DNA of 64,000 nucleotides from a virus, in the IMG/VR virus record IMGVR_UViG_3300028197_000003, positions 32,001 through 96,000 of that record, one strand, 5' to 3'. A program made the position numbers and the translations under genes. This document shows positions 4,322-59,538 of this stretch, piece by piece. Below the pieces are notes generated by a model, which made no database searches, was not told where the DNA came from, and worked only from the letters and a program-made list of their open reading frames with translations. Position 1 is the stretch's first letter. Every line of letters starts with the position of its first letter.

Positions 4322-4379
4322 TAGAAGATGAATGCATTCGTGATTCTTCAGTGAATATTCAAAATCACAAATAAAGTAA

Positions 4380-7300: not shown

Positions 7301-8672
7301 TGTTGCTGCTACTACCTTCACTTCAAGCAACACTATTGTTGCTACTCAAGGTCAAACTTCTTTCACCGTTGCCTCTGGTTTCCAAGAAGGTTTCTGTGAT
7401 GTCTATCACAACGGTGTTCGCCTGATCACCGGAACTGACTACACCCAAGGCGTTGATGGTCAGACCATTACTATCAACTCTGGTGCTACCGTTGGTGACG
7501 AACTTGAGTTTGTTGCCTGGAAGTCACTGGGTGACATTGTAAACATTGCATCACTCAAGACTGCCGGTAACCTAACGGTATCTGGTGTTGCAACTGCTAC
7601 TGGCGGTTTCGTTGGTAACCTTACTGGTGATGTCACCGGTACGGTTAGTAGTGGTAGTGGTTTAGGTGCAGGCACTGTTCCTCTAACTTCTCTGGATATC
7701 GACGGTGGTGCTGATATCGGTGCTGACCTGGTTGACGCTGATCTGCTGATCGTTGACGACGGTGCTGGCGGCACTAACAAAAAGACAGCACTGTCTCGCG
7801 TCAAGTCCTACGTGCTTGGCGGTGGATCTGGTGCAACATTTGCCGCGATCAACGTCACGGGTATTGCCACTAACACCTTCCTGCAATCTACCACCGCAAA
7901 CGTGGGTGCTGGACTGACAGTTGGCGGTGCAATTGACGGAAACGGCGGTGCAAACATCTCTGGTGGTGAGACCGTCCTTTCTTCCGCAACAGTCTCCGAT
8001 CTGACCGATGGTCGCATCGTAGTCGCGGGTGGATCTGGTGCTCTGGGAGATGACAGCAACCTCACCTGGGACGGATCAACCCTAGGAGTTGGTGGTGCTA
8101 TCAGCGGTTCCGGTGGTGCAAGCATCTCCGGCGGTGAAACCGTCATGTCCTCCGCTACAGTCTCTGACCTGACTTCTGGTCGTGTCGTGCTCGCGGGTGG
8201 ATCTGGTGCTCTCCAAGACAACGGTGGTCTGACTTACGACGGTTCTACCCTCGCAGTCACTGGTGCAGTAACCGTTAGCACCAACATGACCGTTAGCGGT
8301 GACCTGGTTGTTGAAGGTTCTACTACCCAGATCAACACAACCAACACCACAATCGAAGACGTTCTGCTTGAACTGCAGAAAGTAGACGGTGGTAACCTCA
8401 GTGCTGATACCAACAAAGACGTTGGTATCGTAATGAACTACTACAGCGGATCCGCTAAGAAGGCAGCAGTCTTCTGGGATGATTCTGCTGGACGTTTCGC
8501 TCTCGCAAGCGAGGCAACTGAGTCCGCAGGCGTCTTGGGTAGCATTACCTACGCTGGTCTGGAAGTTGGTTCCCTGTACCTGAATGACTGTGCTGGTCAG
8601 TCTCAAGTGATCTCCTGCTCCGGCACGACTCGCTCTCTTGAGAACATCACCATCGACGGGGGATCGTTCTGA
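4380..8672 (+). CDS. Long repetitive tail-fibre-like structural protein
   Basis: 1430 aa, G/A/T/S/D-rich; N-terminal LQFKRG...GEPG motif; two families of internal repeats. Confidence 0.8.
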   Translation: MAAPVLQFKRGSLAALPGLQAGEPGWVTDSYDLFVGIDSNTSNNKVVGSARYWTREGTTSGSAVRMVEGTNNGQHYVSLGAPAALTSSEEYILPAAAVAGGYMKVDGSGNMSWSTEIDIDTPLSVLDIDGGTDIGADLADGDLLIVDDGGGGTNRKTALSRVKTYVLGGGAGASFAAINVSGIGSIAFVKSSTGTFTGVVTASSFDGDLATSNLTGTVANNQLTNSTVSFGGISLALGAADATPAFNLQDATGYLTSNLVGTITNAQLAGSIVDGKLNQITSANKVDVSAIDIDGATDIGADLVDADLLVVDDGAGGTNRKTAMSRVKDYVLGGGAGAKFVNLQATGITTTVQLQTVDINVSAGATVTGALDVDGGANIASGLTVTGGLTANSAIVSDLTDGRVVLAGTSGELEDSGNLTFNGSTLAVTGAATVSTNLGVSGEATLASATISDLTDNRVLIAGTAGAVEDSGNLTFDGSDLGVTGDVTASGTVQAANVTATTAATLASAAVQDLTNGRVVLAGAGGELGDDSGLTYGDNDLRVTGGINATGIASATSFATGAEGSAIIVTSDTITGPSSITLDPAALNDNSGTVFILGDLQVKGTTTQVDSTTVSVADLAIEVAKGAANDAAANGGGFTVDSGDGDKTFHFEALGDNFGSSENLNLASGKVLKVANTEILSAAALASSVSVDVASINLDGATAIGADLVDADLFLVDDGAGGTNRKITATEIKDYMLGGGAGANFAAINVSGISTVGFAEATTLKVGAGATVTGALDVDGGANIASGLVANSAKVSDLTSGRVVLAGTDGEIQDSGNLTFDGSTVGVTGGITVSGAVDANGGMDVAGGFVANSAKVSDLTSGRIVLAGTAGELEDNSALTFNGSTFAVTGAATVSTNLTVTQELSARDASLRNVVSSGVITATNLRNAAAGLLPLVGVSSASGHTGIVTGFKFNGTGVEAYKVEDGTATVTLSGVAATTFTSSNTIVATQGQTSFTVASGFQEGFCDVYHNGVRLITGTDYTQGVDGQTITINSGATVGDELEFVAWKSLGDIVNIASLKTAGNLTVSGVATATGGFVGNLTGDVTGTVSSGSGLGAGTVPLTSLDIDGGADIGADLVDADLLIVDDGAGGTNKKTALSRVKSYVLGGGSGATFAAINVTGIATNTFLQSTTANVGAGLTVGGAIDGNGGANISGGETVLSSATVSDLTDGRIVVAGGSGALGDDSNLTWDGSTLGVGGAISGSGGASISGGETVMSSATVSDLTSGRVVLAGGSGALQDNGGLTYDGSTLAVTGAVTVSTNMTVSGDLVVEGSTTQINTTNTTIEDVLLELQKVDGGNLSADTNKDVGIVMNYYSGSAKKAAVFWDDSAGRFALASEATESAGVLGSITYAGLEVGSLYLNDCAGQSQVISCSGTTRSLENITIDGGSF
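4758..8270 (+). repeat. Intragenic protein repeats: 4 copies of a ~58-aa unit and 7 copies of a ~38-aa unit
   Basis: DGxxxIGADLxDxDLxxVDDGxGGTNxK units begin at 4758, 5253, 6468 and 7695; SAxVxDLTxxRxxxAGxxG...LT(F/Y/W) units occur seven times. Confidence 0.9.
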
Positions 8673-8676
8673 TAGG

Positions 8677-8682
8677 TAAATA
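8677..8682 (+). promoter_or_regulatory. Late promoter TAAATA
   Basis: Just after the fibre stop codon, upstream of the hairpin. Confidence 0.5.
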
Positions 8683-8697
8683 AAAACCTGATATATA

Positions 8698-8722
8698 GGG
8701 GGAGTTGACTCCCCCTTTTTTT
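8698..8722 (+). terminator. Rho-independent terminator
   Basis: GGGGGAG-ttga-CTCCCCC followed by T7. Confidence 0.9.
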
Positions 8723-8941
8723 ATGGAAAAAGAACAAGAACTGCAAAATCTTTTGCAAATCTATGTGAAAAGACTTTCAGATGAAACTGCTAGATCAGTT
8801 GCATATGAAGCACGCATTGGTGTGATGGGTCAACAGTTACAAATGATGGCAGAAGAAATTCAAAGACTTCGTCCAGCACCTGGAGATGCAGGACAGTTCC
8901 CTGAACCTAAAACTGGAGTTGGTAAAACAACTAAAAAATAA
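8723..8941 (+). CDS. Hypothetical coiled-coil protein (72 aa)
   Basis: ATG at 8723; the track's TTG 8705 lies inside the hairpin. Confidence 0.7.
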   Translation: MEKEQELQNLLQIYVKRLSDETARSVAYEARIGVMGQQLQMMAEEIQRLRPAPGDAGQFPEPKTGVGKTTKK

Positions 8942-9474
8942 TGGAGTCATATTTTGGCGGCATTTGGAAGGATGACTATGTTGGTCAACTGAAGCACTCA
9001 GGAGACGCTGTAGTCGATTACATCAATAAGTTATCTCCATCTAGTGTATTGGATGTAGGATGCGGTTACAACCGCCTCAAGGACCGTGTACCGGGGTTAG
9101 TTGGTATTGATCCATATAACAAAGAGGCACACTTACATATGTCTCTGGAGGAATACTATGAGTATGAATTTCCACCTGCTGATGTTGTTCTCTGTCTAGG
9201 ATCAATCAACTTCGGAACTGAAGAAGATATTGATAAACAGATTAGTATGTTAGATAAATTGTTTCTAAAAGATATTATTTTTAGGGTCAATCCAGGTATT
9301 GCTCATGATTGGGCAAATACTAATATTGATCAGATACAATGGTATGATTGGAACATTGAAAAGATAAATAAAATTACTGAAGAATACCAATACAATTTGA
9401 TATCACTGAAAGAAGAAACTACTTCTCAAGGACATCTAAGGTATTTTTTTCATTATGCTAAATACTCACGTTGA
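8941..9474 (+). CDS. Class I SAM-dependent methyltransferase
   Basis: Motif I VLDVGCG, acidic GIDP, DVVLCLGSI. Confidence 0.75.
   Translation: MESYFGGIWKDDYVGQLKHSGDAVVDYINKLSPSSVLDVGCGYNRLKDRVPGLVGIDPYNKEAHLHMSLEEYYEYEFPPADVVLCLGSINFGTEEDIDKQISMLDKLFLKDIIFRVNPGIAHDWANTNIDQIQWYDWNIEKINKITEEYQYNLISLKEETTSQGHLRYFFHYAKYSR
9459..9464 (+). promoter_or_regulatory. Late promoter TAAATA for the ferritin-like gene
   Basis: 23 nt before ATG 9488; purine-rich GAAAGGAA RBS between them. Confidence 0.65.
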
Positions 9475-9487
9475 AAGGAAATCCAAA

Positions 9488-10162
9488 ATGCTTTCTGGAA
9501 CCGATTTCGTAAAGAAAATCAAGGAAGGTAATAGGGAGCTGTTTGAGGCTTCCCGTAGTAACGTCCGTCGTTTCTTCGCTTCTGCCCCTAGCGAGGAGTA
9601 CCTCGTCGAGCACTTCCGTGGCCGCATGGTCAACGAAGCACAAAACATGTATGCGATTGCTGGTCAAGTAGCATCTGCCGACCCTAGCACCGACGTTCGC
9701 GACCTGGAGCTTCTTAGCAAGCAGGCATTGGACGAAGCAAAGCACTTCCGCATGGTCAAGGAAGTCATCGAGCACATCACTGGCGAAGAACTAGACGTTG
9801 CTGCTGCTTTCGCTGCTGAAGCAGGTAAGCCTCAAGCAAAGGGTGCTTCCCTGCTTGAGAAGTACGAAGCTGCTCAAGATCCTGCTGCCCTCGCTGCCTA
9901 TCAGCTCGTTGCTGAAGGTCGTGCACAAGCAGTCTGGTCTGAAATGGCCGAGTGTGTTGAAGATTCGTTTATCTCCACCCGCTACGCCTCCATTGCTAAG
10001 GATGAAGGTTTCCACAGCAACCTCGGCGGACGCTCACTGAGCCGTCTGGTTGAAGGTAGTGTGGAACTTCAAGATCGCGTTCTTGCTCTTGTCGAGCGTA
10101 TGCGTTCTGATCTTCTGGAGATCTCCCGCCAGAACACGGCTACACCTCTTGCCGTTGTTTGA
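9488..10162 (+). CDS. Ferritin-like di-iron carboxylate protein
   Basis: E-x32-ExxH (NE...DEAKH) and E-x29-ExxH (AE...DEGFH); predicted all-helical; 224 aa. Confidence 0.8.
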   Translation: MLSGTDFVKKIKEGNRELFEASRSNVRRFFASAPSEEYLVEHFRGRMVNEAQNMYAIAGQVASADPSTDVRDLELLSKQALDEAKHFRMVKEVIEHITGEELDVAAAFAAEAGKPQAKGASLLEKYEAAQDPAALAAYQLVAEGRAQAVWSEMAECVEDSFISTRYASIAKDEGFHSNLGGRSLSRLVEGSVELQDRVLALVERMRSDLLEISRQNTATPLAVV

Positions 10163-10775
10163 AGGTCTGACGACCTTCTCTAATAGTCTCGTCTAACCAA
10201 TGGTCTTTGACGGGACTTACATATTTTCCGTTGGCATCGCCGGTTATAAACTGGTCGATGCCATTGGTCGTTACAGGGAACTTTAGAATCTCCCCACAGT
10301 ATTTGATATAGTCTTCCTTCCACAAGAAAAAAGATTCGTGAGATAGGAAATGTGTTTCAATATATGGATCCTCTAAGAGGGATTTATAGTAACCTTTGGC
10401 AATCGGTAGGGTTACTTCTCCACCAACTCTTTCTTGTTGAAGTGCATTTATATTTTGATCTCTTGTAATAATTGCCACTACAGGTGTGTAACCAAGATGC
10501 ATTGCTTGATGACAAACTGCTGAAATCTTAGGTACCTGTCTGACACCATCATAGAAGAAAGGAACACTTACATTTGCTAGAAAAAAATCTCCCTCAGGAA
10601 ACTCTAACAACTCAGGATATACCCAATACTTGGCAAATGGTTCCTCATCAGATGGAACCCAGTAATTATCTTTGAGAGAATCCCACCCTACAACTTCTGG
10701 GTGCAAACTAAATATTCTTGCAAATAGGTGATTGCCTGATCCTTGTGGTCCGGTTGTGATAAGGAGTCTTTTCAT
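10140..10775 (-). CDS. Sulfotransferase/P-loop-fold protein, family B
   Basis: TGPQGSGNH loop and ITRDQN motif; paralog of 15190-15870. Confidence 0.6.
   Translation of the reverse strand: MKRLLITTGPQGSGNHLFARIFSLHPEVVGWDSLKDNYWVPSDEEPFAKYWVYPELLEFPEGDFFLANVSVPFFYDGVRQVPKISAVCHQAMHLGYTPVVAIITRDQNINALQQERVGGEVTLPIAKGYYKSLLEDPYIETHFLSHESFFLWKEDYIKYCGEILKFPVTTNGIDQFITGDANGKYVSPVKDHWLDETIREGRQTFKQRQEV
10709..10714 (+). promoter_or_regulatory. Late promoter TAAATA inside the opposite-strand gene
   Basis: About 60 nt before ATG 10774; AAGGAG RBS at 10761-10766. Confidence 0.5.
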
Positions 10776-11913
10776 GAGTAAACCGAAGTTTATATTTTTC
10801 TTAGGAGCATCATTTTCAGCAACAACTCCGCTGTATAAAATGCTTCGTAATCACATTACGAGTGGATTTGCTAAAGAACATCATTTGGCAGAAGTAGCAG
10901 AGATAGCGCAACAAATAAGATCTGGAATTTATACACCGACCGATAGAGATAATTTTCCCTTTTTATCAAGTTCAAAAAAATCTTCTACCTCATCATGGGT
11001 CGGTGGGGAAGAGTATAATGAAAAGTTATTGAGATGTAAAAAGAAGATTGATTGCGCCCAAAATTTTGGTACTAGTTCTGGTGAGATTATAACAGATTAT
11101 CCGGATTTTAGTAATTGGTCAATACAAAAATATGTTGATTACTACAAAAAATTGTGGGACAATAGAGGGGATGGTAGAGATGTATTAGTTGATTGGTCTA
11201 ATAGTAATGGTCGTTTAGATTATAATTTTATAAAAAATTTACTGGAAGCATTGAAGCAAGAGTTTGATGTCAGTGCTCTGATTATATGTAGAGACCCTGT
11301 GAGAAGGGCATGGTCTTGGTTGAACTATGCATGGAATGATTATTCAAAAGTTTATATGAAAGATCGTTACACTAATATTGACTCTGCCGCCAAAGCAGAA
11401 TTTGCAAAAATAAAACCATATCATCCACTCATTGAAAGTGTAGAAAAATCGTGTCCTGTGCACGTTTTGGTTATGGAAAAAGTATGGGAGGGTAATTCTT
11501 TTCTATCTAAAGAAGAGTCTCAAATAATTACTCAGTTGATTGGGAAACCTGACTTTGCCCCAAACCTATACTGTCCCGATAGAGGAAACAAAGCAATCCG
11601 TTATAAACATCAAAAAGACCAGTGGTGTTCTGATCATTTCAATATGTCAGATAAACAATACTATGAGTACAAAAATATTATGATTGATCATTATGATGGA
11701 TGGAAAGGAGATCTTCCTGAGGGGTGGGGATCTCCAATGGATTATGAAACAAACTGTTCCTTACCCATAGATGGCATAGAAGAACAGTACATCAAACCTG
11801 GAACTTATCGTAAGAGTGATGGAAAATTATATGTAGACTTTGATGGTTATGATGAATTATATAACGTTGAATATGTTGACCCATATTTTAGTGATAAATT
11901 TTCCAACCCATAA
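10774..11913 (+). CDS. Sulfotransferase-like protein, family A
   Basis: LGASFSATTPL (5'-PSB-like loop) and RDPVRRAWS (3'-PB-like); start MSKPKF chosen by alignment to paralogs. Confidence 0.65.
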   Translation: MSKPKFIFFLGASFSATTPLYKMLRNHITSGFAKEHHLAEVAEIAQQIRSGIYTPTDRDNFPFLSSSKKSSTSSWVGGEEYNEKLLRCKKKIDCAQNFGTSSGEIITDYPDFSNWSIQKYVDYYKKLWDNRGDGRDVLVDWSNSNGRLDYNFIKNLLEALKQEFDVSALIICRDPVRRAWSWLNYAWNDYSKVYMKDRYTNIDSAAKAEFAKIKPYHPLIESVEKSCPVHVLVMEKVWEGNSFLSKEESQIITQLIGKPDFAPNLYCPDRGNKAIRYKHQKDQWCSDHFNMSDKQYYEYKNIMIDHYDGWKGDLPEGWGSPMDYETNCSLPIDGIEEQYIKPGTYRKSDGKLYVDFDGYDELYNVEYVDPYFSDKFSNP

Positions 11914-11938
11914 AAAAAGGCAGGCGTTATGCCTGCCT
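11912..11938 (-). terminator. Intrinsic terminator for the DctP-like gene, possibly bidirectional
   Basis: AGGCAGGC-gttat-GCCTGCCT with an A7 tract on + (U tract on -). Confidence 0.8.
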
Positions 11939-11957
11939 ATAAAATCAAAACAGAAGT

Positions 11958-12914
11958 TTACTCTTCTGCATCGGTACCGTAGGCACGAATACGATCAGCA
12001 ACTCCCGCAGGAAGAGAAATCGTATCATACAATCCAGCAGTAGCTTGCTTGAATGCAGTACGCTCATCAGTAGTCATTTTGTTGACGGTAATTCCTTCAT
12101 TCGTGCACTTGACCTCAAGGTCAAACATCTCATCAACAGACCATTCTTGTTCCGCATCTGCGGTAACAATTGCTGCGTTTGCAATTTTGCCACGAAGTCC
12201 AGAATCTTTATCCAAAGACTTCCAAAAATCTTTCCGACAAACAATAGCTGCAACATTCATAGAATGTCGTGTATCATTGAGAGTCTTCATGACATCATCG
12301 CCTTCATTGGCGAAGAACTGAGTGTAGTTAGCATCTGCACCAGCAACGGTGCCATCTGTGACGGCTTGTTTGATCTGCTCTACTTCAAGAACAACAGGAG
12401 TAGCACCAATTGCTTCAAAAGTTTTTTTAGCAATTTCGTTGTCGTCGCATCGAATGGAAACCCCTAACAGATCATCGGTTGTATCGATTTCTTTAGTAGC
12501 AGGAATCATATTGTATCCACCAGCAAAAGTATATCCCAGACCCCTAACTACAGTATCTTCACGTCCCCATAGTCCTTTCAAAAGCTCAATTCCAACTTGA
12601 CCCGCTAAGGCGTTACTTGCCTCAACATAACTACTAAACAAATAAGGCATATCAAGAACTCTCAAATCTGAGTTGAGTTCAGCCAACTTGGACGTATATA
12701 TCTGACACATATCCAACTTACCCTCTCTAATGAGAGTAATAAAATCATTCCTGGTAACTGCTACACCTTCATTGTACTTCGTAGCAAACTCTGATAGTGT
12801 AAGAATTTCAACTTCAAATTCCCCAGGAGCAAGGATCTCAATTTCAGTAGCAAACTTCTCAGCAGTACGACGGAAAAGTTCAATAGGTTCATGTACCCAA
12901 CGTACTTTTTTCAT
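11958..12914 (-). CDS. dctP: TRAP-transporter substrate-binding (DctP-family) protein without signal peptide
   Basis: LDMPYLF, DLLGVSIR, FEAIGATPV, GTVAGAD, DTRH motifs typical of DctP; no hydrophobic N-terminal leader. Confidence 0.8.
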   Translation of the reverse strand: MKKVRWVHEPIELFRRTAEKFATEIEILAPGEFEVEILTLSEFATKYNEGVAVTRNDFITLIREGKLDMCQIYTSKLAELNSDLRVLDMPYLFSSYVEASNALAGQVGIELLKGLWGREDTVVRGLGYTFAGGYNMIPATKEIDTTDDLLGVSIRCDDNEIAKKTFEAIGATPVVLEVEQIKQAVTDGTVAGADANYTQFFANEGDDVMKTLNDTRHSMNVAAIVCRKDFWKSLDKDSGLRGKIANAAIVTADAEQEWSVDEMFDLEVKCTNEGITVNKMTTDERTAFKQATAGLYDTISLPAGVADRIRAYGTDAEE

Positions 12915-12941
12915 GCCTTATTGAGTTATGGTTCTATACTA

Positions 12942-12947
12942 TATTTA
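12942..12947 (-). promoter_or_regulatory. Late promoter TAAATA on the minus strand
   Basis: tattta on +, 27 nt upstream of the DctP-like ATG. Confidence 0.65.
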
Positions 12948-12991
12948 TTGTAATGTAACTGTTCCTAAATTATTATGATGCTTGTGAAAGG

Positions 12992-14038
12992 ATGAAACCT
13001 AAATTTATTTTGTTTCTTGGAGTAGGTTGGTCAGCAACAACTCCACTGTTTGCATCTATCAAAGAACATTTACTCTACGGCATTGAGAAGGAATGGTTTT
13101 ATCCCCAGATGTTGTTTGAAAGGAATTTTTACAAGTTCACAAATGATCATTTATGGAGAAAATCTTTAGATGAACTCAAGGTAAGAATAAGAAAATTTAG
13201 AGAGGGTGAGATACAGTTTCATCATGTGTCGAAGCACGATGTGTCAGAAAAAGCATTGAGTATCATAGAGCATCATGATCCTACTATCGAGAGATATATT
13301 GATTTTTACAAATGTCTCTGGGAAGAAGGGGTAAGTTACGATAAGAAGGCACTTGCAGATTTTTCAAATACAAATAGTGAATGTTTCTTTGTTGATAAAG
13401 GAATTCGATGGTATAGAAACTTTGTATCAGAATTGGATAAACATTTTGATGTTATTCAAGTTGCAATTTTTAGAGATCCAGTTAGGAGGTTTTTCTCAAA
13501 CGAGGTTTGGTTATATGACAACGCCGAGCATCTAGACATTGACACGGGTGGTCAAACTTTAGATCAGTGGTTTGAACATCGTATAGAACATCAGATTCCT
13601 TATGCCAAACTTATCAAGACTGCCATGTCTTGTGGTAAGACTGAATTTTTTGTTATGGAAGACGTATGGGAATCTGATACTGAAACCCAAATTGCTCGAC
13701 TACAAAAACTTTTTGCTGTCGATAGAGTAGAATTATATGACAATGCTTACTGTCCTGATAGAGGATCTAAAGCAATTAGATATAGTAACCTAATAGATCA
13801 ATGGACTAGTGATTCATTTGATATGCCAGATGATTTATATTATAAACTCAAAAAAATGATGAGTTTTCAGTACGAAGATTGGATAAAAATGTATGGCAAA
13901 TTGCCTGAAACTTGGGGCAGTCCTGCAGACTATAAGAAGAATCAGAGTTTACCGATAGGGAGACTACAGCACAAAGAGAACTTTGTTTATCCAGAGTTTT
14001 ATGAAGAGATTGATGGTCAAAATTATTGTCATAACTAG
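12992..14038 (+). CDS. Sulfotransferase-like protein, family A
   Basis: LGVGWSATTPL; RDPVRRFFS; YCPDRGSKAIRY. Confidence 0.65.
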   Translation: MKPKFILFLGVGWSATTPLFASIKEHLLYGIEKEWFYPQMLFERNFYKFTNDHLWRKSLDELKVRIRKFREGEIQFHHVSKHDVSEKALSIIEHHDPTIERYIDFYKCLWEEGVSYDKKALADFSNTNSECFFVDKGIRWYRNFVSELDKHFDVIQVAIFRDPVRRFFSNEVWLYDNAEHLDIDTGGQTLDQWFEHRIEHQIPYAKLIKTAMSCGKTEFFVMEDVWESDTETQIARLQKLFAVDRVELYDNAYCPDRGSKAIRYSNLIDQWTSDSFDMPDDLYYKLKKMMSFQYEDWIKMYGKLPETWGSPADYKKNQSLPIGRLQHKENFVYPEFYEEIDGQNYCHN

Positions 14039-14058
14039 TAAAGTGATTGTATAAAAAA

Positions 14059-15189
14059 ATGAAACCTAAATTTATACTATTTGTTGGTTATGGATGGGCA
14101 GCAACAACTCCATTATTCAATTCCCTAAAAGAACATCTACTTTTTGGTACTCAAAAAGAGATGCATTATTTTGAATTGATCTATAAAAAACAATATTACA
14201 AAGATCCTAAAAACTGGGGGGAAGGAGCCAAAGACCGTAGGGGATGGGAGAAAACTTTTGAATTACATTTAGCACGTGTCAAACAGACCAGGTATGGTGA
14301 AGATAATTATGATCAAAATATTTTTGTGCCAGATAAAGCATTTGATATTCTTGAAGATCCTAATACTTGTATAGAAAACTATATCAATTTTTATAAATCC
14401 ATTTGGGAAAAACATGCAGATGAGGGCAAGATACTTGCAGATTGGTCAAACTCAAATATTCTTCCGATAAACGATAAAACAGTAGGACTGCCTTTGTACA
14501 AAGAGTTTATACAAAGACTACAAGAACATTTTGATGTTACTCAAGTAGGAATTTTTAGAGATCCAGTTAGACGACTATTTTCAGAACATGTTTGGCATTG
14601 GGACAATGCAGATCTCCTTAGAATTGATAAAGGTTTACATCATACCGTAGAAACTTACTTAGAATTATATGCAAAAAAAGTTTTACCTTACAGTGATATT
14701 ATAGATGTCACTAGAAAATATGGTAAAACTGAATTTTTTGTTATGGAAGATATATGGGAGAACGATACTAAAAATCAACTTAGTCGATTAGAAAATCTTA
14801 TTGGTAAAGATATAAATTTATATGATAATGCTTACTCTCCTGATAGAGGATCTAAAGCAATTAGATATACTCTTTTGATTGATCAATGGAATAGTGATTC
14901 ATTTGATATGCCAGATGATTTATATTATAAACTAAAAAAAATACTTCAGTATCAATATGATTATTGGCCTAAAGTATTTGGTTGTCTTCCTGAGCAGTGG
15001 GGAACCCCTATAGACTACAAGAAAAATCAAAGTTTACCTATAGGAAGAATTGAACACGAAGGTAATTTTGTTCCTGAAGAAAATCGTGAACTAATTGATG
15101 GTGAATATTATTGGAAAGATTTCGATAATACATTTCTGCTTGATGGAATGGATGATTTTTTTACTAAATTTGAGGTTGTAAGTAAGTGA
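14059..15189 (+). CDS. Sulfotransferase-like protein, family A (tandem paralog)
   Basis: VGYGWAATTPL; RDPVRRLFS; ATG at 14059 matches paralog starts. Confidence 0.65.
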   Translation: MKPKFILFVGYGWAATTPLFNSLKEHLLFGTQKEMHYFELIYKKQYYKDPKNWGEGAKDRRGWEKTFELHLARVKQTRYGEDNYDQNIFVPDKAFDILEDPNTCIENYINFYKSIWEKHADEGKILADWSNSNILPINDKTVGLPLYKEFIQRLQEHFDVTQVGIFRDPVRRLFSEHVWHWDNADLLRIDKGLHHTVETYLELYAKKVLPYSDIIDVTRKYGKTEFFVMEDIWENDTKNQLSRLENLIGKDINLYDNAYSPDRGSKAIRYTLLIDQWNSDSFDMPDDLYYKLKKILQYQYDYWPKVFGCLPEQWGTPIDYKKNQSLPIGRIEHEGNFVPEENRELIDGEYYWKDFDNTFLLDGMDDFFTKFEVVSK

Positions 15190-15870
15190 TCAACAACACT
15201 TAGATGGTTTTTCTGGTTGTGGTCCTGTAGGTCCTTCAGTAAAAGGATCTAATGGAGCAGGAATTCCAGTTTTATTGCAGTCATCCAAAGGATTGTTTGC
15301 AACATATTGAATATACTTGTCGTTAGCATCTCGTTTCAAAATTTCATCTACACGTTTGTCATACCATGCAACTGGGATACCAATGTCTAGGTGTTTTAGA
15401 TACTCTTCTTTATAGAGATATAAAAGTTCGTAACTAAGAAAGGTTGGGTTGGGGAATTTTGACATCTGATCCAAGAAATACTTGGTGGTTAGTTCGCCCC
15501 TCAACCGCTGTTGTTGATTACGAAGTATGTTTTGATCACGACCAATTACAACTATTTTAGTTTTGATCCCCATATTTTCGGCAGACTTGCAAAACTGCAA
15601 TACGTTTGGACACCAATGGGTCCCTTTTTCTTTGATGCCGAGGGGGACACTAATAGAGGTAAAGTAATATTCCGACTGAGACCAATCGAAAGATTGCAGT
15701 TTATTGGGGTCTCTCCAATATTCTGCAAAAGGTTCTGCAAATCTATGTGCTTCCCAATAATTGTTCAGCAAAGATTTCCACCCATAGACATCATCGTGCA
15801 ATGAAAAGATTTTTGACCATAGATGGTTTCCCGATCCTTGAGGCCCAGTTAGTACAACGAGTGTCTTCAT
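15190..15870 (-). CDS. Sulfotransferase/P-loop-fold protein, family B
   Basis: TGPQGSGNH; IGRDQN; paralog of 10140-10775. Confidence 0.6.
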   Translation of the reverse strand: MKTLVVLTGPQGSGNHLWSKIFSLHDDVYGWKSLLNNYWEAHRFAEPFAEYWRDPNKLQSFDWSQSEYYFTSISVPLGIKEKGTHWCPNVLQFCKSAENMGIKTKIVVIGRDQNILRNQQQRLRGELTTKYFLDQMSKFPNPTFLSYELLYLYKEEYLKHLDIGIPVAWYDKRVDEILKRDANDKYIQYVANNPLDDCNKTGIPAPLDPFTEGPTGPQPEKPSKCC

Positions 15871-15891
15871 AATATAGTAACCTTCATACTA

Positions 15892-15900
15892 ATTATAACA
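15892..15900 (-). promoter_or_regulatory. Extended -10 sigma70-type promoter TGTTATAAT
   Basis: Perfect TGnTATAAT 21 nt before ATG 15870. Confidence 0.65.
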
Positions 15901-15902
15901 CC

Positions 15903-15908
15903 TAAATA
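15903..15908 (+). promoter_or_regulatory. Late promoter TAAATA
   Basis: Upstream of fibre-like gene 15973. Confidence 0.7.
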
Positions 15909-15972
15909 CTCCTATGCGAGAGTATATACTCTCAGTATCTAACTAGATGATCGCTACATAGCGACTACGTGA

Positions 15973-41702: not shown

Positions 41703-42353
41703 ATGGTTATCCCTCAAACAGGGAGTCAACTATCAACCCAACAGGCACCTGAGAAGCGAAGTTCATCTTTGAAATGGTTTGCCTTAGGGCTTGGTGGATT
41801 ACTTGGCATTTCTCATCTCGCCATGATTGGTATGCTTGTAGGTAACAAGCAGATGGTTTACCCCAACCTCAATCTTCCCGTAAGCGACTATACTTCTTAT
41901 GAAGCGGAGGTAGGACCCCAAGGTTATCGGGTCAAGTACAACTCCAATGATCCAAAAACTCTCAGTAGAGTTCAGGAATTAGAACTGGATAAGTCTGCTG
42001 AACGACCTGGAGGTCTTTTTGGTGGTGGAAGTCCCCGAAGAAGTTCTGAGAAACGTACTCAGAAAAGTGTAGAAGAATATACAATGCAGGGTACTCTCAA
42101 CATGCAGAATGAGGGTGGTCTCCCAAAGATCATTGCAGCATCAGACCTGAACGTCGCGTGTATCGAGGCGGTCGGTGGTGGCAAGAGCCAAGGAAAACTC
42201 CTAGGTGCTAGTCTTGGTGCTGCGGCTGCTCCCGCTTTCATGGGGATTCCTATTGTTGGACCTCTTTTAGGTGGTATTGTTACTATGTTCTCCTCTGATA
42301 AAGCAGCCGAAATTGGTGGCAACATGGCAGAAAACTTCTCGGATGACTGCTAA
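41703..42353 (+). CDS. Membrane protein with N-terminal TM helix and C-terminal glycine-zipper-like segment
   Basis: WFALGLGGLLGISHLAMIGML; LLGASLGAAAA...LLGGIV. Confidence 0.7.
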   Translation: MVIPQTGSQLSTQQAPEKRSSSLKWFALGLGGLLGISHLAMIGMLVGNKQMVYPNLNLPVSDYTSYEAEVGPQGYRVKYNSNDPKTLSRVQELELDKSAERPGGLFGGGSPRRSSEKRTQKSVEEYTMQGTLNMQNEGGLPKIIAASDLNVACIEAVGGGKSQGKLLGASLGAAAAPAFMGIPIVGPLLGGIVTMFSSDKAAEIGGNMAENFSDDC

Positions 42354-43209
42354 TCTTCATATCAATGCAGGGGCAGCGTACTCAGGTACAAAACCCCTGT
42401 GTTATAGCATTGAAAAAACTGGGTATGCACCTATGGGGGAGGATCGGAAAACAGAACCGAACCTCCTTTATTATTTGTCCCTTCAAGAGTCAGAGGCACA
42501 GTGGTACTGGGAGTCTCAGCATAGTCATAGGACCCAATCCTACATCAAAAAGAATTACACACTCTCTGACTACATTGAGTATGTGAAGAATAGAAATGGG
42601 TTGTTGGATTTTTCTAATAGCAATCAAGCATTACCTGATTATTTCCTGAAAATTATTGCCCCAATACTTCAAAAAGAATTCAATGTTACTGTCACGCTAA
42701 TCTGGAGAGACCCTGTTAGGAGATCTTATTCTCAACTCTCAGACATCTATCAAAAGAAAACTGGCAAGAAACAAACTCCTCAGTGGAAAATTCACAAGAC
42801 ATCTAATCTCAAAAAAGATCTAGCGGAAAGGCGTAAGTGGAGAGAAATTTCTGATAAATTTCCTACTAGCATTTCTTTTTGGAAACACTGTGTCGAGAAT
42901 AGAGACTGGCATATCTGTGACTATGCAGAAATCTATAAACGCTGGCAGTGCTTTGACAATATTCAACACCTGATCATGGAAGACTTGTGGTCATGTGATT
43001 CTGAACTCCTTCTGTTGGAAGAACTTCTTGACCGCCCTGTCGGTGTTCTATATGATAATGCTTACTGTTCTGCTGGGATTGCTGAAGGTCATCAGCAAAC
43101 TGATATGGAAGTTTTGAGTGAAGAAGATATTGCCTGGGGTCAAGATCAAATGTCATGGGTATATAATAATTTCAAAGATAGTTTTGGTTATATACCTTCT
43201 TCGTGGTAG
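42343..43209 (+). CDS. Sulfotransferase-like protein, divergent family A
   Basis: NAGAAYSGTKPL; WRDPVRRSYS; LYDNAYC. Confidence 0.6.
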   Translation: MTANLHINAGAAYSGTKPLCYSIEKTGYAPMGEDRKTEPNLLYYLSLQESEAQWYWESQHSHRTQSYIKKNYTLSDYIEYVKNRNGLLDFSNSNQALPDYFLKIIAPILQKEFNVTVTLIWRDPVRRSYSQLSDIYQKKTGKKQTPQWKIHKTSNLKKDLAERRKWREISDKFPTSISFWKHCVENRDWHICDYAEIYKRWQCFDNIQHLIMEDLWSCDSELLLLEELLDRPVGVLYDNAYCSAGIAEGHQQTDMEVLSEEDIAWGQDQMSWVYNNFKDSFGYIPSSW

Positions 43210-57370: not shown

Positions 57371-57762
57371 ATTTTTCTAGTTACCAACACTTTGTAAACA
57401 CAGTGACAAGTAAAGAATCACAAGATTCTGATGCTTTCATCTATCGTTTGCAAGAACTTGGTAGCGAAATTCCAATCCAACGTCTTCTAACTGCTGCTGT
57501 AGGCATCTCTGCTGAAGGTGGTGAGTTTACGGAGATCGTAAAGAAAATGATTTTCCAAGGCAAACCTGCTAATGAGGAAAACTTGTACCACCTAAAGCGG
57601 GAATTGGGTGATGTAATGTGGTATGTGGCACAAGCATGCATGGCACTGGACGTGGACATGAATGAAGTGCTAGATATGAATATCAAAAAACTGGAATCCC
57701 GTTTCCCCGAGGGTACTTTCAGTGAGTTCTATTCAGAGAATCGTAAAGATGGAGACATCTAA
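57361..57762 (+). CDS. mazG: MazG-family nucleotide pyrophosphohydrolase
   Basis: EGGEFTEIVKK; ELGDVMWY; KLESRFP. Confidence 0.93.
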   Translation: MGVDFSSYQHFVNTVTSKESQDSDAFIYRLQELGSEIPIQRLLTAAVGISAEGGEFTEIVKKMIFQGKPANEENLYHLKRELGDVMWYVAQACMALDVDMNEVLDMNIKKLESRFPEGTFSEFYSENRKDGDI

Positions 57763-58438
57763 TCTTTGCATAACCTGCATCAAAATTGGAGACAAATTTG
57801 ATGCAGGTTATGTGAACAAACTCTATGATATGGTGCATCGTCAGATTGATGTACCATTTTTTTGTTTTACTGATAACCCTAGTGGCATCAAAGAAGGTGT
57901 TACTGTGGTTGAGATTGATGTTACTGAATATTCTCAATGGGAGAATTGGTGGCCAGCATGGTGGAAGATCAATATGTTTGTCCGCCCTGAAATACAGGAC
58001 TTCAAACGTAAAATCTTCTTTGATTTGGATGTGATTATCCATGGAGATCTTAGTAAAATTTATGAATTCAATAGTCCATTTGCTTTGGTCTATTCTTCTT
58101 GGAAAGGATTACAATTCCAAGTCAAAAACCCAACCAAATCGATGTTCAATTCCAGTGTAATTGCATGGGATGATGCAAAGCACATTTATGATCATTGGAT
58201 GCAGGATGCTAAGGGATTCGTTGCCAAGTATGCTGGAACTGATGACTTCTATCATAACGAAAAGATCAAAAGATATCGTCTCCCACCTATCATCTACTCA
58301 TATAGGGATGGTTGTATTCCAGGGCAACAAAATTGTTTAGAATTTAGACCATGGATGGGACTTGCTATTCTCCATCAGCACCCTAAGAACCATGAACTAG
58401 ACCCAAATATACATATTATTGCTAGGTATTGGGGATAG
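57749..58438 (+). CDS. Glycosyltransferase-like protein (GT-A fold)
   Basis: KIGDKF..GYV; WWKINMF; FFDLDVII (DxD); HQHPKNH. Confidence 0.7.
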   Translation: METSNLCITCIKIGDKFDAGYVNKLYDMVHRQIDVPFFCFTDNPSGIKEGVTVVEIDVTEYSQWENWWPAWWKINMFVRPEIQDFKRKIFFDLDVIIHGDLSKIYEFNSPFALVYSSWKGLQFQVKNPTKSMFNSSVIAWDDAKHIYDHWMQDAKGFVAKYAGTDDFYHNEKIKRYRLPPIIYSYRDGCIPGQQNCLEFRPWMGLAILHQHPKNHELDPNIHIIARYWG

Positions 58439-58440
58439 TA

Positions 58441-59538
58441 ATGGCAAAGATTGATCCAAAGCATCTCAAGAAATATACTGTCAAGTGGATTCTTTCTAAT
58501 GAACCACTTGATTTTTTTATGAGAATTGCTAAGTCATTCGAGCATCATATGGATCGCCGCATGCCTGGTAGAGTCAATTTTGAAATTATGTCTGCTCAAG
58601 AGTATGCAGTCAAGTATAATGATGGAGTTGAGATTGATCATGATGATGTGCTTAGATTGTTGAAAGAAAATGAGATCCAACTAGCAGATTTTCCTGCACC
58701 TTTGTTTGCACAAAAGATCAAAGAGCGTTATCAGAATCGTCAAACTAGGGGGAAAGATTTAGATTTTGTTGAAAGTGATTGGTCAAGCATTGAAATGCCA
58801 TTTCTTTTTAGAAATGAAACGCATGCCACTGCGTTTATGCAGTCCCATATGGGTGAACAACTTCTTTACTATCGTAATCAGTTGAAAGTAAAACCTATGG
58901 CAATGGTGTCTTGGGGTGGATCTAAATTGATTGCTGGGGACAAACCCTATATGTCACCTGAGGATTTTGAAGGTAGTAAAGTTAGTCTCCAATACCATAC
59001 TGCAGTAGCAGAGAAAATTTTTGAGTCTTTGGGTGCTGAGGTCACTGATTCTGACGCTGATGCATATGAGACAGACATGCCCTCCTTTGATATGTCTAAG
59101 AAGGTGGTTACTGAACTGAATCACAGCATCAATACTAATATTATCCTTGCATCTCATGAGTTCTGGAGGAATGTAATCAAGTGTGAGTGTGATTACAGAG
59201 AGCATACTAAAGAAGAAGAGGACGGTTGTCTAAGAAAACAATTGAAACGTGCATGCAATGAAGCAACACGTGATAGAGACGTGTGGAATGATGAAATGAC
59301 TGCTAAGTTTAGGCAAGAATGTGAGTCAAGAGGCATTGAGTTACATCAGGTATCTGACTCCACTCCTTTCAAAGAAAAGACTGCTTCTGTATATGATCAG
59401 TTTGTAAAATTCTTCTATGACGAACAGTTTATTGACAGTGAAAGTGAGGTTGTCAAGCATGACCTCAGAACAAGAGTCAATGATTTGTCTGACAACAGTA
59501 GAAGTGCTTGGTGTGACGACCTTACTATTGACCAATGA
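58441..59538 (+). CDS. dctP: Second DctP-like substrate-binding protein, no signal peptide
   Basis: IEMPFLF; PEDFEG; FESLGA; shares W..EP..F.R.A..F and KYN.GV with 11958-12914. Confidence 0.7.
   Translation: MAKIDPKHLKKYTVKWILSNEPLDFFMRIAKSFEHHMDRRMPGRVNFEIMSAQEYAVKYNDGVEIDHDDVLRLLKENEIQLADFPAPLFAQKIKERYQNRQTRGKDLDFVESDWSSIEMPFLFRNETHATAFMQSHMGEQLLYYRNQLKVKPMAMVSWGGSKLIAGDKPYMSPEDFEGSKVSLQYHTAVAEKIFESLGAEVTDSDADAYETDMPSFDMSKKVVTELNHSINTNIILASHEFWRNVIKCECDYREHTKEEEDGCLRKQLKRACNEATRDRDVWNDEMTAKFRQECESRGIELHQVSDSTPFKEKTASVYDQFVKFFYDEQFIDSESEVVKHDLRTRVNDLSDNSRSAWCDDLTIDQ

What the first reader, a model, noticed from the sequence alone, without database searches (positions are those of the whole stretch)
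8723..15870. Candidate undescribed tailoring system: methyltransferase + di-iron enzyme + five sulfotransferase-fold proteins + soluble ligand-binding protein
A 7-kb island embedded between fibre genes encodes a SAM methyltransferase, a ferritin-like di-iron protein, two families of sulfotransferase-fold proteins and a leaderless DctP. Most have late promoters (9459, 10709, 12942). The set looks like a methylation/oxidation/group-transfer pathway with a binding module rather than typical cyanophage auxiliary metabolism. Satellite members occur at 42343 and 58441. Possible targets (inference): virion glycans or fibres, host surface polysaccharide, or a small signalling molecule.
Basis: partly seen in the sequence, partly recalled or inferred. 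Interest (0 to 1): 0.82.

Follow-up and report, generated by a model that had tools for sequence, protein, structure and literature searches.

The report
Phage enzyme cassette between fibre genes
An uncultured marine cyanobacterial virus carries, among its tail genes, a widely conserved set of four late-expressed enzymes plus an inserted batch of odd sulfotransferase-like genes and a transporter-less binding protein, which probably decorate some surface molecule whose identity is unknown.

Summary
The window lies in a complete 192-kb T4-like cyanophage with psbA and psbD.

The 7-kb stretch is two layers, not one nine-gene system.
- **Conserved core:** a small ORF, a class-I methyltransferase, a ferritin-like di-iron protein and two paralogous 'GPQGSGNH' sulfotransferase-fold proteins. 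In related viral contigs the di-iron gene is present in 35 of 35 loci with room for it, and the methyltransferase in 26 of 27. The core always sits between the long fibre and the neck genes.
- **Lineage-specific insert, between the two paralogues:** three sulfotransferase-superfamily genes in which an aromatic residue replaces the catalytic lysine, and a signal-less orphan DctP. Most relatives have nothing at that junction; six carry a bilin reductase.

The sulfotransferase family's usual home is a second island beside the baseplate genes, outside the window.

Late-promoter motifs are confirmed. Marine metatranscriptome contigs identical to the window cover the core and the DctP.

A distant 472-kb contig links the methyltransferase, di-iron and GPQGSGNH genes to a carbamoyltransferase, an APS-kinase-like gene and TctA.

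Most likely this is an oxidise, methylate and add-an-anionic-group tailoring pathway. Its donor, product and target are unknown.

First readers of this scan noted the same cassette in other genomes.

The parts
8697..8716 (+). Terminator-like hairpin with a T-run after the 1430-aa fibre gene. It marks the upstream edge of the island.
   Evidence: 8-bp stem with 6 G-C pairs, then a T-run. The fibre ORF ends at 8672.
8723..8941 (+). Small 72-aa helical ORF that begins MEKEQELQ. Function unknown.
   Evidence: A relative is present in 21 of 80 related loci, always next to the methyltransferase or fibre gene.
8941..9474 (+). Class-I SAM methyltransferase-like protein, 177 aa. Part of the conserved core.
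   Evidence: Motif I (D38, G40, G42) and D57 are invariant. Atlas structure TM 0.85-0.90 to viral Methyltransf_11 clusters. Present in 26 of 27 loci with room for it. Pfam sub-threshold only.
9458..9464 (+). CTAAATA late-promoter-like box, 30 nt before the di-iron gene's ATG at 9488.
9488..10162 (+). Ferritin-like di-iron carboxylate protein, 224 aa counted from M12 of the longer ORF. Part of the conserved core. G+C is 0.53, as in the capsid gene.
   Evidence: Present in 35 of 35 loci with room for it. Highest contig depth in two RNA studies.
10140..10775 (-). Family B copy 1, 211 aa. Sulfotransferase/P-loop-fold protein with a TGPQGSGNH loop. Part of the conserved core.
10708..10714 (+). CTAAATA box 66 nt before the first family A gene. 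It lies inside the coding sequence of family B copy 1.
10774..11913 (+). Family A copy 1, 379 aa. Divergent sulfotransferase-superfamily protein with Phe at the position of the catalytic lysine. Part of the inserted cargo.
11918..11938 (-). Terminator-like hairpin after the DctP gene.
   Evidence: An RNA-library contig spans 11880-12917, from this hairpin to the gene's ATG at 12914.
11958..12914 (-). Signal-less DctP-family solute-binding protein, 318 aa. The conserved ligand-binding Arg is kept (GVSIR). Part of the inserted cargo.
12942..12948 (-). ATAAATA late-promoter-like box 28-34 nt before the DctP ATG.
12992..14038 (+). Family A copy 2, 348 aa. This is the copy that was modelled. Part of the inserted cargo.
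14059..15189 (+). Family A copy 3, 376 aa. Recent tandem duplicate of copy 2. Part of the inserted cargo.
   Evidence: 52% amino-acid identity to copy 2. 76% nucleotide identity over the last 300 nt.
15190..15870 (-). Family B copy 2, 226 aa. Same fold, with a proline-rich tail ending in Cys-Cys. Part of the conserved core.
42343..43209 (+). Satellite family A paralogue, about 288 aa, with Tyr at the catalytic-lysine position and the RDPVRR motif kept.
57722..58438 (+). Glycosyltransferase-like ORF, 238 aa, directly upstream of the second DctP-like gene.
   Evidence: phrog_1962 'glycosyltransferase', E 4.1e-10. No Pfam hit.
58441..59538 (+). Second, more divergent signal-less DctP-like protein, 365 aa.
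   Evidence: PF03480, E 4e-16..

Best explanation
**Anatomy (shown).** The stretch has two layers.

- **Layer 1, the conserved core.** It holds a small ORF, a SAM methyltransferase, a ferritin-like di-iron protein and two paralogous 'GPQGSGNH' sulfotransferase-fold proteins.
  - It is carried by an abundant uncultured clade of T4-like cyanophages, between the long fibre gene and the neck genes.
  - It is present in marine RNA libraries, and a late-promoter box precedes its di-iron gene.
- **Layer 2, the cargo.** It is dropped into the junction between the two paralogues and holds three copies of a divergent sulfotransferase-superfamily protein and a cytoplasmic, transporter-less DctP binding protein.
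  - The three copies keep the 3'-phosphate-binding motif but carry Trp or Phe in place of the catalytic lysine.

**Mechanism (inferred).**
- The core is a tailoring pathway made late in infection.
- The di-iron enzyme hydroxylates or otherwise oxidises a substrate.
- The methyltransferase and the sulfotransferase-fold proteins then cap it with a methyl group and an anionic group.
- The anionic group would come from a host-supplied 3'-phosphonucleotide donor: PAPS or a PAPS-like compound.
- Gene position and timing point to a virion surface component (fibre protein or its glycan) or a host envelope polysaccharide as the target.
- The family A copies belong functionally with the phage's second, Nod-factor-like island by the baseplate genes. 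That island holds SGNH-like proteins, a carbamoyltransferase, a radical SAM enzyme and a glycosyltransferase-like protein.
- The family A copies may or may not feed the same product as the core.
For: **Folds**
- Family A: Z 14.6, with only sulfotransferases in the top 50. Relatives hit Sulfotransfer_3 and Sulfotransfer_1.
- Family B: the top nine chains of 48,161 are sulfotransferases.
- Di-iron protein: ligands and ferritin-like hits.
- Methyltransferase.

**Core linkage**
- 69 of 80 loci hold two family B copies; 10 of the other 11 are cut by a contig end.
- The di-iron gene is present in 35 of 35 loci with room, the methyltransferase in 26 of 27.
- A distant 472-kb contig holds the di-iron protein at 63% identity, the methyltransferase at 35% and family B at 41-53%.
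- On that contig they lie in another order, with a carbamoyltransferase, an APS-kinase-like gene, TctA and a radical SAM gene.

**Insertion**
- Junction gap sizes and the bilin reductase at the same junction.

**Family A home**
- 204 family A copies in 73 other viral loci, next to the carbamoyltransferase, phrog_1574, gp25 and gp6.
- The same island sits at 1.4-12.6 kb of this genome.

**Active-site pattern across 94 family A relatives**
- R161 in 92, P163 in 94, S169 in 84, E223 in 93, K33 in 86, E34 in 74.
- At the catalytic-lysine position: W 59, F 15, Y 5, H 5, K 8.

**Timing and expression**
- The late motif is shared with structural genes.
- One metatranscriptome holds contigs with no differences from the window at 8680-10213 (depth 47), 11880-12917 (depth 11.7) and 14406-15872 (depth 34). 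It has no cover over parts of family A copies 1 and 2.
- A second study shows the di-iron gene at depth 22-54 against about 10 for the fibre gene.

**Precedent**
- Iyer et al. 2010 (PMC2938197) predicted bacterial operons that combine hydroxylases, methyltransferases, sulfotransferases and PAPS synthetases. They proposed T4 tail-collar-type or collagen-like proteins as the substrates.
Against: - No product, donor or substrate is shown.
- Both sulfotransferase-fold families lack the lysine or arginine that canonical enzymes need, so they may use another donor or be non-catalytic.
- The phage encodes no APS kinase.
- No glutamine amidotransferase (GATase or Peptidase_C26, the family classes expected for a Cj1417-type enzyme) was found. 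The other phosphoramidate-donor enzymes were not searched for.
- Synteny within one viral clade is partly inherited, so it is weak evidence for function. The only independent replicate is the 472-kb contig.
- The junction between the two family B genes also accepts an unrelated gene, so the cargo may have nothing to do with the core.
- I did not model the di-iron protein or the methyltransferase (structure cap reached).
- Contigs from RNA libraries cannot exclude DNA carry-over and give no strand or transcript ends.
Confidence: 0.45

Rival explanations
1. There is no pathway. The fibre-neck junction is a hypervariable spot where unrelated accessory genes pile up, and each gene acts alone. For example, the di-iron protein could be an iron or oxidative-stress protein, and DctP a metabolite sponge.
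For: - The junction between the two family B genes holds nothing, a bilin reductase, or family A with or without DctP in different relatives.
- DctP occurs only in the closest relatives.
- DctP has its own promoter box and terminator, and an RNA-library contig covers just that unit.
- JGI names the di-iron family 'rubrerythrin'.
Against: - The four core genes are kept together in 35 of 35 and 26 of 27 loci, while flanking structural proteins drop to 30-50% identity.
- Three of the four families recur together on a distant contig in another order.
Confidence: 0.2
2. The sulfotransferase-fold proteins transfer a group other than sulfate from a PAPS-like donor. One candidate is the phosphoramidate of the Campylobacter O-methyl phosphoramidate (MeOPN) system, which the methyltransferase would then O-methylate.
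For: - The catalytic lysine is replaced, while the 3'-phosphate-binding Arg and Ser are kept.
- Family A copy 1 weakly matches NCBIfam NF058596 'O-methyl phosphoramidate transferase' (E 0.005 and 5e-4, 15 bits).
- An APS-kinase-family gene sits in the distant cluster.
- Unchecked notes of this scan pair phosphoramidate-donor operons with sulfotransferase-shaped proteins.
Against: - 15 bits against a cut-off of 600.
- Only one of six paralogues gives the match.
- This phage has no GATase, Peptidase_C26 or APS-kinase gene.
- Marine picocyanobacteria are not known to me to make that donor (own knowledge).
Confidence: 0.1
3. The core is an auxiliary metabolic module that acts on a small host molecule such as a lipid, quinone, pigment or nucleotide-linked metabolite, not on a virion or envelope polymer.
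For: - Ferritin-like di-iron enzymes of this size typically act on small molecules (PaaA, AurF, aldehyde-deformylating oxygenase, Coq7; own knowledge).
- The best structural match of family B is the sulfotransferase domain of the Synechococcus olefin synthase (Z 10.2).
- Transporter parts sit in or beside the clusters: DctP here, TctA in the distant cluster.
Against: - The module sits inside the late structural gene block, with late-type promoter boxes.
- The olefin synthase match is tied with tyrosylprotein sulfotransferases (Z 10.1).
Confidence: 0.15
4. The sulfotransferase-fold proteins are pseudo-enzymes. They have lost catalysis and serve as binding or structural (possibly virion) proteins.
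For: - Loss of the catalytic lysine in both families.
- Location among structural genes.
- Family B copy 2 has a proline-rich tail ending in Cys-Cys.
Against: - Polar residues typical of active sites are strongly conserved. In family B: N15, H16, R111, D112, Q119, Q120, R122, E126 and E148. In family A: K33, E34, R161, S169 and E223.
- 8 of 94 family A relatives still carry the lysine.
Confidence: 0.1

Closest known systems
PAPS-dependent sulfotransferases (heparan-sulfate 3-OST and NST, tyrosylprotein sulfotransferase, CurM/olefin-synthase ST domains; Pfam Sulfotransfer_1 and Sulfotransfer_3)
   Same: - Same fold: family A Z 13-14.6 over about 225 residues, family B Z 8-10.2 over about 165 residues.
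- A strand-loop-helix at the N-terminus.
- Family A keeps the RDPxxRxxS 3'-phosphate-binding motif.
- Relatives of family A hit the Pfam models.
   Different: - The catalytic Lys/Arg of the 5'-phosphosulfate loop is Trp, Phe or Tyr in family A. Family B has GPQGSGNH, with no basic residue in the loop.
- In family B a Gln replaces the 3'-phosphate-binding Ser.
- The window's own proteins reach no Pfam cut-off.
- Families A and B are not detectably homologous to each other by profile comparison.
Nod-factor decoration enzymes of rhizobia (NodS methyltransferase, NodU/NolO carbamoyltransferase, NodH sulfotransferase)
   Same: The same mix of activities is encoded by this phage. A NodU-family carbamoyltransferase (Pfam E 1e-52) sits next to family A genes in the baseplate-side island, and a methyltransferase sits in the core.
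   Different: - No chitin-oligosaccharide synthase was identified by the scans run.
- The phage genes are split over two islands.
- SGNH-like, radical SAM and di-iron partners are added.
- The target is unknown.
Predicted bacterial hydroxylase, methyltransferase and sulfotransferase operons with tail-collar or collagen-like substrates (Iyer et al. 2010, PMC2938197)
   Same: The same logic of hydroxylating a structural protein and then methylating or sulfating it. A phage tail-fibre-type protein is the proposed substrate.
   Different: Those operons use 2-oxoglutarate/Fe(II) dioxygenases and encode PAPS synthetases. Here the oxidant is a ferritin-like di-iron protein, and no PAPS synthesis gene is present.
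Campylobacter jejuni O-methyl phosphoramidate (MeOPN) capsule modification (Cj1415-Cj1422)
   Same: A PAPS-like donor, transferases and SAM methyltransferases acting on a surface glycan. Family A copy 1 gives a weak match to the transferase family.
   Different: The match is far below the family cut-off. No glutamine amidotransferase or APS-kinase-like gene is present in this phage.
Ferritin-like di-iron oxygenases (PaaA/PaaC, AurF, RNR R2, DUF455)
   Same: The E...ExxH...E...ExxH ligand set with spacings of 33, 57 and 30 residues. Relatives give convergent weak hits to five such families.
   Different: - No family cut-off is reached.
- About 224 aa, with no partner subunits nearby.
- The family is essentially viral. 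Pattern scans with two of its motifs over one genome each for 185,579 prokaryote species gave only one weak hit.
TRAP-transporter solute-binding proteins (DctP, SiaP)
   Same: Pfam and NCBIfam membership, with the conserved ligand-binding Arg.
   Different: - No signal peptide.
- No DctQ or DctM in the genome.
- Its own late-type promoter box and terminator.

Membership tests
Sulfotransferase superfamily (PAPS-dependent) | Sulfotransferase fold: a P-loop-like alpha/beta core with the extra helices that set it apart from nucleotide kinases | tested here: met
   - Family A: Z 14.6-13.3, 222-235 residues aligned, and only sulfotransferases in the top 50.
- Family B: the nine best of 48,161 chains are sulfotransferases (Z 10.2-8.0), with kinases from Z 8.0 down. 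This is a weaker margin.
Sulfotransferase superfamily (PAPS-dependent) | 5'-phosphosulfate-binding loop with a catalytic Lys or Arg (PKxGTT type) | tested here: not met
   - Family A: W 59, F 15, Y 5, H 5 and K 8 of 94 at that position. The window's copies have F, W, W and Y.
- Family B: an invariant GPQGSGNH loop with no basic residue.
Sulfotransferase superfamily (PAPS-dependent) | 3'-phosphate-binding motif (Arg, then Ser eight residues later) | tested here: met
   - Family A: R161 in 92 of 94 and S169 in 84 of 94.
- Family B only partly: R111 is invariant, but Gln119 sits at the Ser position.
Sulfotransferase superfamily (PAPS-dependent) | Sequence match to a curated sulfotransferase model | tested here: inconclusive
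   - The window's proteins give no Pfam, NCBIfam or PHROG hit.
- 33 and 27 of 94 family A relatives hit Sulfotransfer_3 and Sulfotransfer_1 (best E 5e-7 and 2e-6).
Sulfotransferase superfamily (PAPS-dependent) | Transfer of sulfate from PAPS | not testable with these tools
   Needs biochemistry. The phage has no APS kinase gene.
Class I SAM-dependent methyltransferase | Rossmann-type fold with motif I (GxGxG) and an acidic residue at the end of strand 2 | tested here: met
   - VLDVGCG and GIDP are invariant in 18 relatives.
- The Atlas's own model gives TM 0.85 to a cluster in which 56% of members carry PF08241.
- Pfam cut-off not reached (TehB, E 0.11).
Ferritin-like di-iron carboxylate proteins | Two E...ExxH ligand sets on a four-helix bundle | tested here: inconclusive
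   - The ligand set is complete and invariant.
- Relatives give sub-threshold hits to PaaA_PaaC, AurF, Ribonuc_red_sm, DUF455 and Ferritin_2.
- I did not model the fold.
TRAP transporter solute-binding protein (DctP family) | Match to PF03480 or NF037995 above cut-off | tested here: met
   112.8 bits against a cut-off of 23.4, and NF037995 at 102 bits against 50.
TRAP transporter solute-binding protein (DctP family) | Export signal and cognate DctQ/DctM membrane subunits | tested here: not met
   - The HMM match starts at residue 17 of the longest ORF, and the N-terminus MKKVRWVHEP is not hydrophobic.
- The orthologue at 47% identity is the same.
- The genome has no DctM or DctQ.
MeOPN phosphoramidate transferases (NCBIfam NF058596) | Score above the family cut-off over the full 596-position model | tested here: not met
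   15-16 bits against a cut-off of 600, covering positions 274-381 only, in one paralogue only.

The most novel reading that the evidence does not exclude
An abundant uncultured cyanophage clade makes, late in infection, a dedicated enzyme set that chemically decorates its own tail fibres or their glycans. The set is a di-iron hydroxylase, a methyltransferase and lysine-less sulfotransferase-fold transferases. The added groups would be methyl plus sulfate or a related anionic group, taken from a non-canonical use of PAPS or from a PAPS-like donor. This would be a new type of virion post-assembly tailoring that tunes host recognition.
Probability: 0.15. Interest if true: 0.85.

Novelty: new variant of a known kind. 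Interest (0 to 1): 0.62.

Why it matters
**Scale.** The core genes are common in the ocean. There are 2,214 clusters of the GPQGSGNH protein and 2,435 of the di-iron protein at 90% identity, and at least 282 viral contigs. The core is absent from every cultured phage in GenBank's phage set and is found in marine metatranscriptomes.

**If it is a tailoring pathway,** it would be a virus-encoded chemistry acting on fibres or cell envelopes of the most abundant marine phototrophs. That bears directly on host range and adsorption.

**Enzymology.** Two sulfotransferase-fold families have dropped the canonical catalytic lysine but kept the 3'-phosphate site. They offer a direct way to ask what else this fold can transfer.

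**Method.** The analysis shows that the stretch splits into a conserved core and exchangeable cargo, so experiments can be aimed at four genes instead of nine.

Tried and rejected
- **DNA and protein searches against 50,697 GenBank phage records.**
  - The island DNA, the di-iron protein and both family B proteins gave nothing.
  - Family A matched only three unannotated contigs of 'Marine virus AG-345-D19'.
- **Single-sequence and profile searches against PDB sequences.** Nothing significant for family A, family B or the methyltransferase. The 8qai hit for the methyltransferase profile is a designed repeat protein, which I read as an artefact.
- **Profile comparison of family A with family B.** No detectable homology.
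- **Family A in genomes of 185,579 prokaryote species.** The pattern scan found none. This is limited by the exact patterns used, so it is no proof of absence.
- **The di-iron protein in the same collection.** One weak hit, in a Methylomirabilota genome.
- **Unknown proteins of the 472-kb contig (347, 353 and 323 aa) compared with the family A profile.** Not related.
- **PAPS or phosphoramidate donor genes in the phage.** No APS kinase, GATase or Peptidase_C26.
- **Rfam over 8000-17000.** No RNA family.
- **Sigma-70-type promoter scan.** Fewer sites than in shuffled sequence, so not informative.
- **The exact motif ATAAATA alone.** Not enriched (11 found against 10 expected). Only its combination with CTAAATA, strand bias and position before genes carries weight.
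- **RNA-library contigs.** They leave parts of family A copies 1 and 2 uncovered. I draw no conclusion from those holes.
- **Literature.** No paper in the library describes this cassette.

Full report
**What the window is.** The window is bases 32001-96000 of a complete 192,351-bp viral record. It encodes T4-type neck, sheath-stabiliser, terminase, portal and capsid genes. The genome also holds psbA and psbD, so this is a T4-like cyanophage. Its major capsid protein is at most 76% identical to cultured Synechococcus and Prochlorococcus phages. It is 86.5% identical to an unannotated single-cell-derived 'Marine virus AG-345-D19'. The phage therefore belongs to an uncultured clade.

**Checking the observation.** The nine ORFs are real. 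Only the DctP gene reaches a curated family cut-off (PF03480, E 2.5e-32), so I tested the other calls by other means.

- **Family A** (10774-11913, 12992-14038, 14059-15189).
  - The word-indexed search gave few close relatives (8 proteins). A full profile search found 607 clusters at 50% identity.
  - An AF2 model of the 348-aa copy has pLDDT 78.
  - All of its top 50 structural matches are sulfotransferases. Z is 14.6 to 3rnl and about 14 to heparan-sulfate 3-O- and N-sulfotransferases, with 222-235 residues aligned.
  - Of 94 diverse relatives, 33 hit Pfam Sulfotransfer_3 (best E 5e-7) and 27 hit Sulfotransfer_1 (best E 2e-6).
- **Family B** (10140-10775 and 15190-15870).
  - The two copies are 37% identical.
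  - The family has 2,214 homologue clusters, and the best 120 listed are 63-100% identical to the query.
  - The model has pLDDT 86.5.
  - In an exhaustive comparison with 48,161 PDB representatives, the nine best chains are sulfotransferases: olefin-synthase ST domain Z 10.2, tyrosylprotein sulfotransferases Z 10.1-9.4. P-loop kinases follow from Z 8.0 with fewer aligned residues.
- **Methyltransferase.** It keeps motif I and the strand-2 acidic residue and resembles viral Methyltransf_11 clusters.
- **Di-iron protein.** All six ligands are invariant. Its relatives give convergent weak hits to five ferritin-like families.
- **DctP.** It has no room for a signal peptide, and the genome holds no DctQ or DctM.
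- **Late promoters.**
  - The same motif precedes the fibre, neck, sheath, portal and scaffold genes.
  - 28 of the window's 30 copies lie on the coding strand.
- **Satellites.** The gene at 42343 is a family A paralogue and the gene at 58441 is a second DctP-like gene.

**Anatomy: a core and a cargo.** I fetched 80 viral contigs holding family B and 79 holding family A and placed all island proteins on them.

- Family B is present as two distinct copies in 69 of 80 loci. Ten of the other eleven are cut by a contig end.
- The di-iron gene is present in 35 of 35 loci that extend at least 900 bp beyond the first family B gene.
- The methyltransferase is present in 26 of 27 loci that extend at least 2.5 kb.
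- The order is always the same: neck genes, 386-aa structural gene, family B copy 2, family B copy 1, di-iron gene, methyltransferase, (small ORF), fibre gene.
- This order holds although the flanking 386-aa protein falls to 30-50% identity.
- The gap between the two family B genes is at most 331 bp in 47 of 69 loci. It exceeds 1.4 kb in only nine.
- In this window the gap is 4.4 kb and holds three family A genes and the DctP.
- Six other loci hold a ferredoxin-dependent bilin reductase at that junction (PF05996, E 1.7e-17).
- DctP occurs only in the six closest loci, and family A in 16 of 80.

So the 7-kb 'system' is a conserved four-enzyme core with exchangeable cargo inserted at a hot spot. 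Base composition agrees. The di-iron gene has 0.53 G+C, like the capsid gene at 0.55, while the family A genes have 0.31-0.35. Family A copies 2 and 3 are a recent tandem duplication. One RNA-library contig joins them into a single copy, which suggests copy-number variation between strains.

**Where family A normally lives.**

- In 73 other viral loci, family A occurs 204 times, about 2.8 copies per locus.
- There it lies next to a NodU-type carbamoyltransferase, a multi-copy 233-aa family, a phrog_1574 glycosyltransferase-like protein, sometimes a radical SAM enzyme, and baseplate genes gp25 and gp6.
- This genome has that island at 1.4-12.6 kb, outside the window. It holds five or six SGNH-like paralogues, two family A genes, the carbamoyltransferase, a 280-aa ORF, a radical SAM enzyme and the glycosyltransferase-like gene, followed by gp25 and gp6.
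- The window's three copies are therefore extra members of a family whose context resembles a Nod-factor-type glycan decoration toolkit.

**An independent look at the core.** A di-iron homologue at 63% identity lies on a 472-kb metagenome contig. The order there differs:

- carbamoyltransferase (42% identity);
- a 140-aa APS-kinase-family protein;
- methyltransferase (35% identity);
- a TctA transporter subunit;
- the di-iron protein;
- two unknown proteins and a DUF2061 protein;
- a family B homologue (41-53% identity);
- further unknown ORFs, then a radical SAM gene at the edge of the locus.

This is the best evidence that the methyltransferase, the di-iron protein and family B work together. 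It also ties them to the carbamoyltransferase island and to a kinase of the family that makes 3'-phosphorylated donors.

**Active sites.** Counts below are across 94 family A relatives with a mean column identity of 18%.

- The 3'-phosphate motif is kept: R161 in 92, P163 in 94, S169 in 84.
- K33 (86), E34 (74) and E223 (93) are also kept. E34 lies 21 residues after the loop, close to the spacing I recall for the catalytic Glu of heparan-sulfate 3-OST (own knowledge).
- The catalytic-lysine position is W (59), F (15), Y (5), H (5) or K (8).
- Family B has an invariant GPQGSGNH loop, an invariant Arg111 and a Gln where the Ser would be.

Both families thus look like conserved, probably active proteins that bind a 3'-phosphonucleotide but do not follow the canonical sulfuryl-transfer recipe. 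One paralogue weakly matches the Campylobacter O-methyl phosphoramidate transferase family (15 bits against a cut-off of 600). That is a lead only. The phage has no APS kinase, GATase or Peptidase_C26 genes.

**Expression.**

- One marine metatranscriptome holds contigs with no differences from the window. They cover the fibre gene (depth 39), the small ORF with the methyltransferase and di-iron genes (8680-10213, depth 47), the DctP unit from its terminator to its ATG (11880-12917, depth 11.7), and the end of family A copy 3 with family B copy 2 (depth 34). Parts of family A copies 1 and 2 have no cover.
- A second study shows the di-iron gene at depth 22-54 against about 10 for the fibre gene.
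- The uneven cover argues for RNA rather than DNA carry-over. Contigs give no strand, no transcript ends and only rough levels.

**Interpretation.**

- The best reading (confidence 0.45) is a late tailoring pathway.
- In it, oxidation by the di-iron enzyme is followed by methylation and by transfer of an anionic group from a host-made 3'-phosphonucleotide donor.
- Position and timing favour a fibre, a virion glycan or a cell-envelope polymer as the target.
- Iyer et al. 2010 predicted analogous bacterial operons with phage tail-collar-type substrates (PMC2938197).
- The rivals are:
  - unrelated genes at a hot spot (0.2);
  - a small-molecule auxiliary metabolic module (0.15);
  - phosphoramidate-type chemistry (0.1);
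  - pseudo-enzymes (0.1).
- The role of the cytoplasmic DctP is unresolved. Its separate transcription unit and narrow distribution argue that it is not an integral part of the core.

**Novelty and earlier notes.** No paper in the library describes the cassette. No GenBank phage carries the core. First readers of this scan had already noted the same cassette in other genomes. One follow-up had classed the di-iron protein as a late, codon-optimised ferritin-fold enzyme. My tests agree and add three things:

- the split into core and cargo;
- the link to the baseplate-side island;
- the distant 472-kb context.

I rate it a new variant of a known kind: a tailoring gene cluster built from known enzyme superfamilies, in a phage, with non-canonical sulfotransferase-fold members.

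Noticed in passing
window 9890-10090 (di-iron protein residues about 145-215): A profile of the di-iron family gives C-phycocyanin beta chains as its best PDB sequence hits (E 0.002). MAECVEDxFISxRY aligns with the bilin-binding Cys82 motif MAACLRDMEIILRY. No Pfam Phycobilisome hit appears among 20 members. Probably chance, but curious in a cyanophage whose relatives carry a bilin reductase next door.
   Followed up: partly
L171 1470-12610 (genome 1.4-12.6 kb, outside the window): A second, larger enzyme island just upstream of baseplate genes gp25 and gp6. It holds five or six SGNH/GDSL-like paralogues, two family A genes, a NodU-type carbamoyltransferase, a 280-aa ORF, a radical SAM enzyme and a phrog_1574 glycosyltransferase-like protein. 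It is conserved in 73 viral loci.
   Followed up: partly
L156 10819-11460, and five similar loci: A ferredoxin-dependent bilin reductase gene (PF05996, E 1.7e-17) sits between the two GPQGSGNH genes in six related contigs. The junction is therefore an insertion hot spot.
   Followed up: yes
L172 (472-kb ENA contig) 2900-11886: A distant cluster joins a carbamoyltransferase, a 140-aa APS-kinase-family protein, a methyltransferase, TctA, the di-iron protein, DUF2061 and a GPQGSGNH protein. The organism behind this very long contig was not identified.
   Followed up: partly
window 15190-15260 (C-terminus of family B copy 2): Copy 2 ends in a proline-rich tail and Cys-Cys. Many orthologues end in CC or CCGDKPCHC, while others lack the tail. 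It could be a metal site or an anchoring element.
   Followed up: no
window 13633-15112: Family A copies 2 and 3 are tandem duplicates, 76-77% identical in nucleotides over about 400 nt. An RNA-library contig joins 13806 to 14892 as if only one hybrid copy were present in another strain.
   Followed up: partly
window 10773-10776: The start codons of family B copy 1 (minus strand) and family A copy 1 (plus strand) overlap in a single CATG. The plus gene's CTAAATA box and AAGGAG ribosome-binding site lie inside the other gene's coding sequence.
   Followed up: no
window 57722-59538: A glycosyltransferase-like ORF (phrog_1962, E 4e-10) lies directly upstream of the second signal-less DctP-like gene. 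This is a second pairing of a group-transfer enzyme with an orphan binding protein.
   Followed up: partly
genome 140730-143060 (outside the window): Further carbamoyltransferase-like sequences match the carbamoyltransferase of the 472-kb contig at 24-40% identity.
   Followed up: no
window 9488-10162: The di-iron gene has 0.53 G+C, like the capsid (0.55) and fibre (0.52) genes. Its neighbours have 0.31-0.42. It also has the highest contig depth in two RNA studies.
   Followed up: partly
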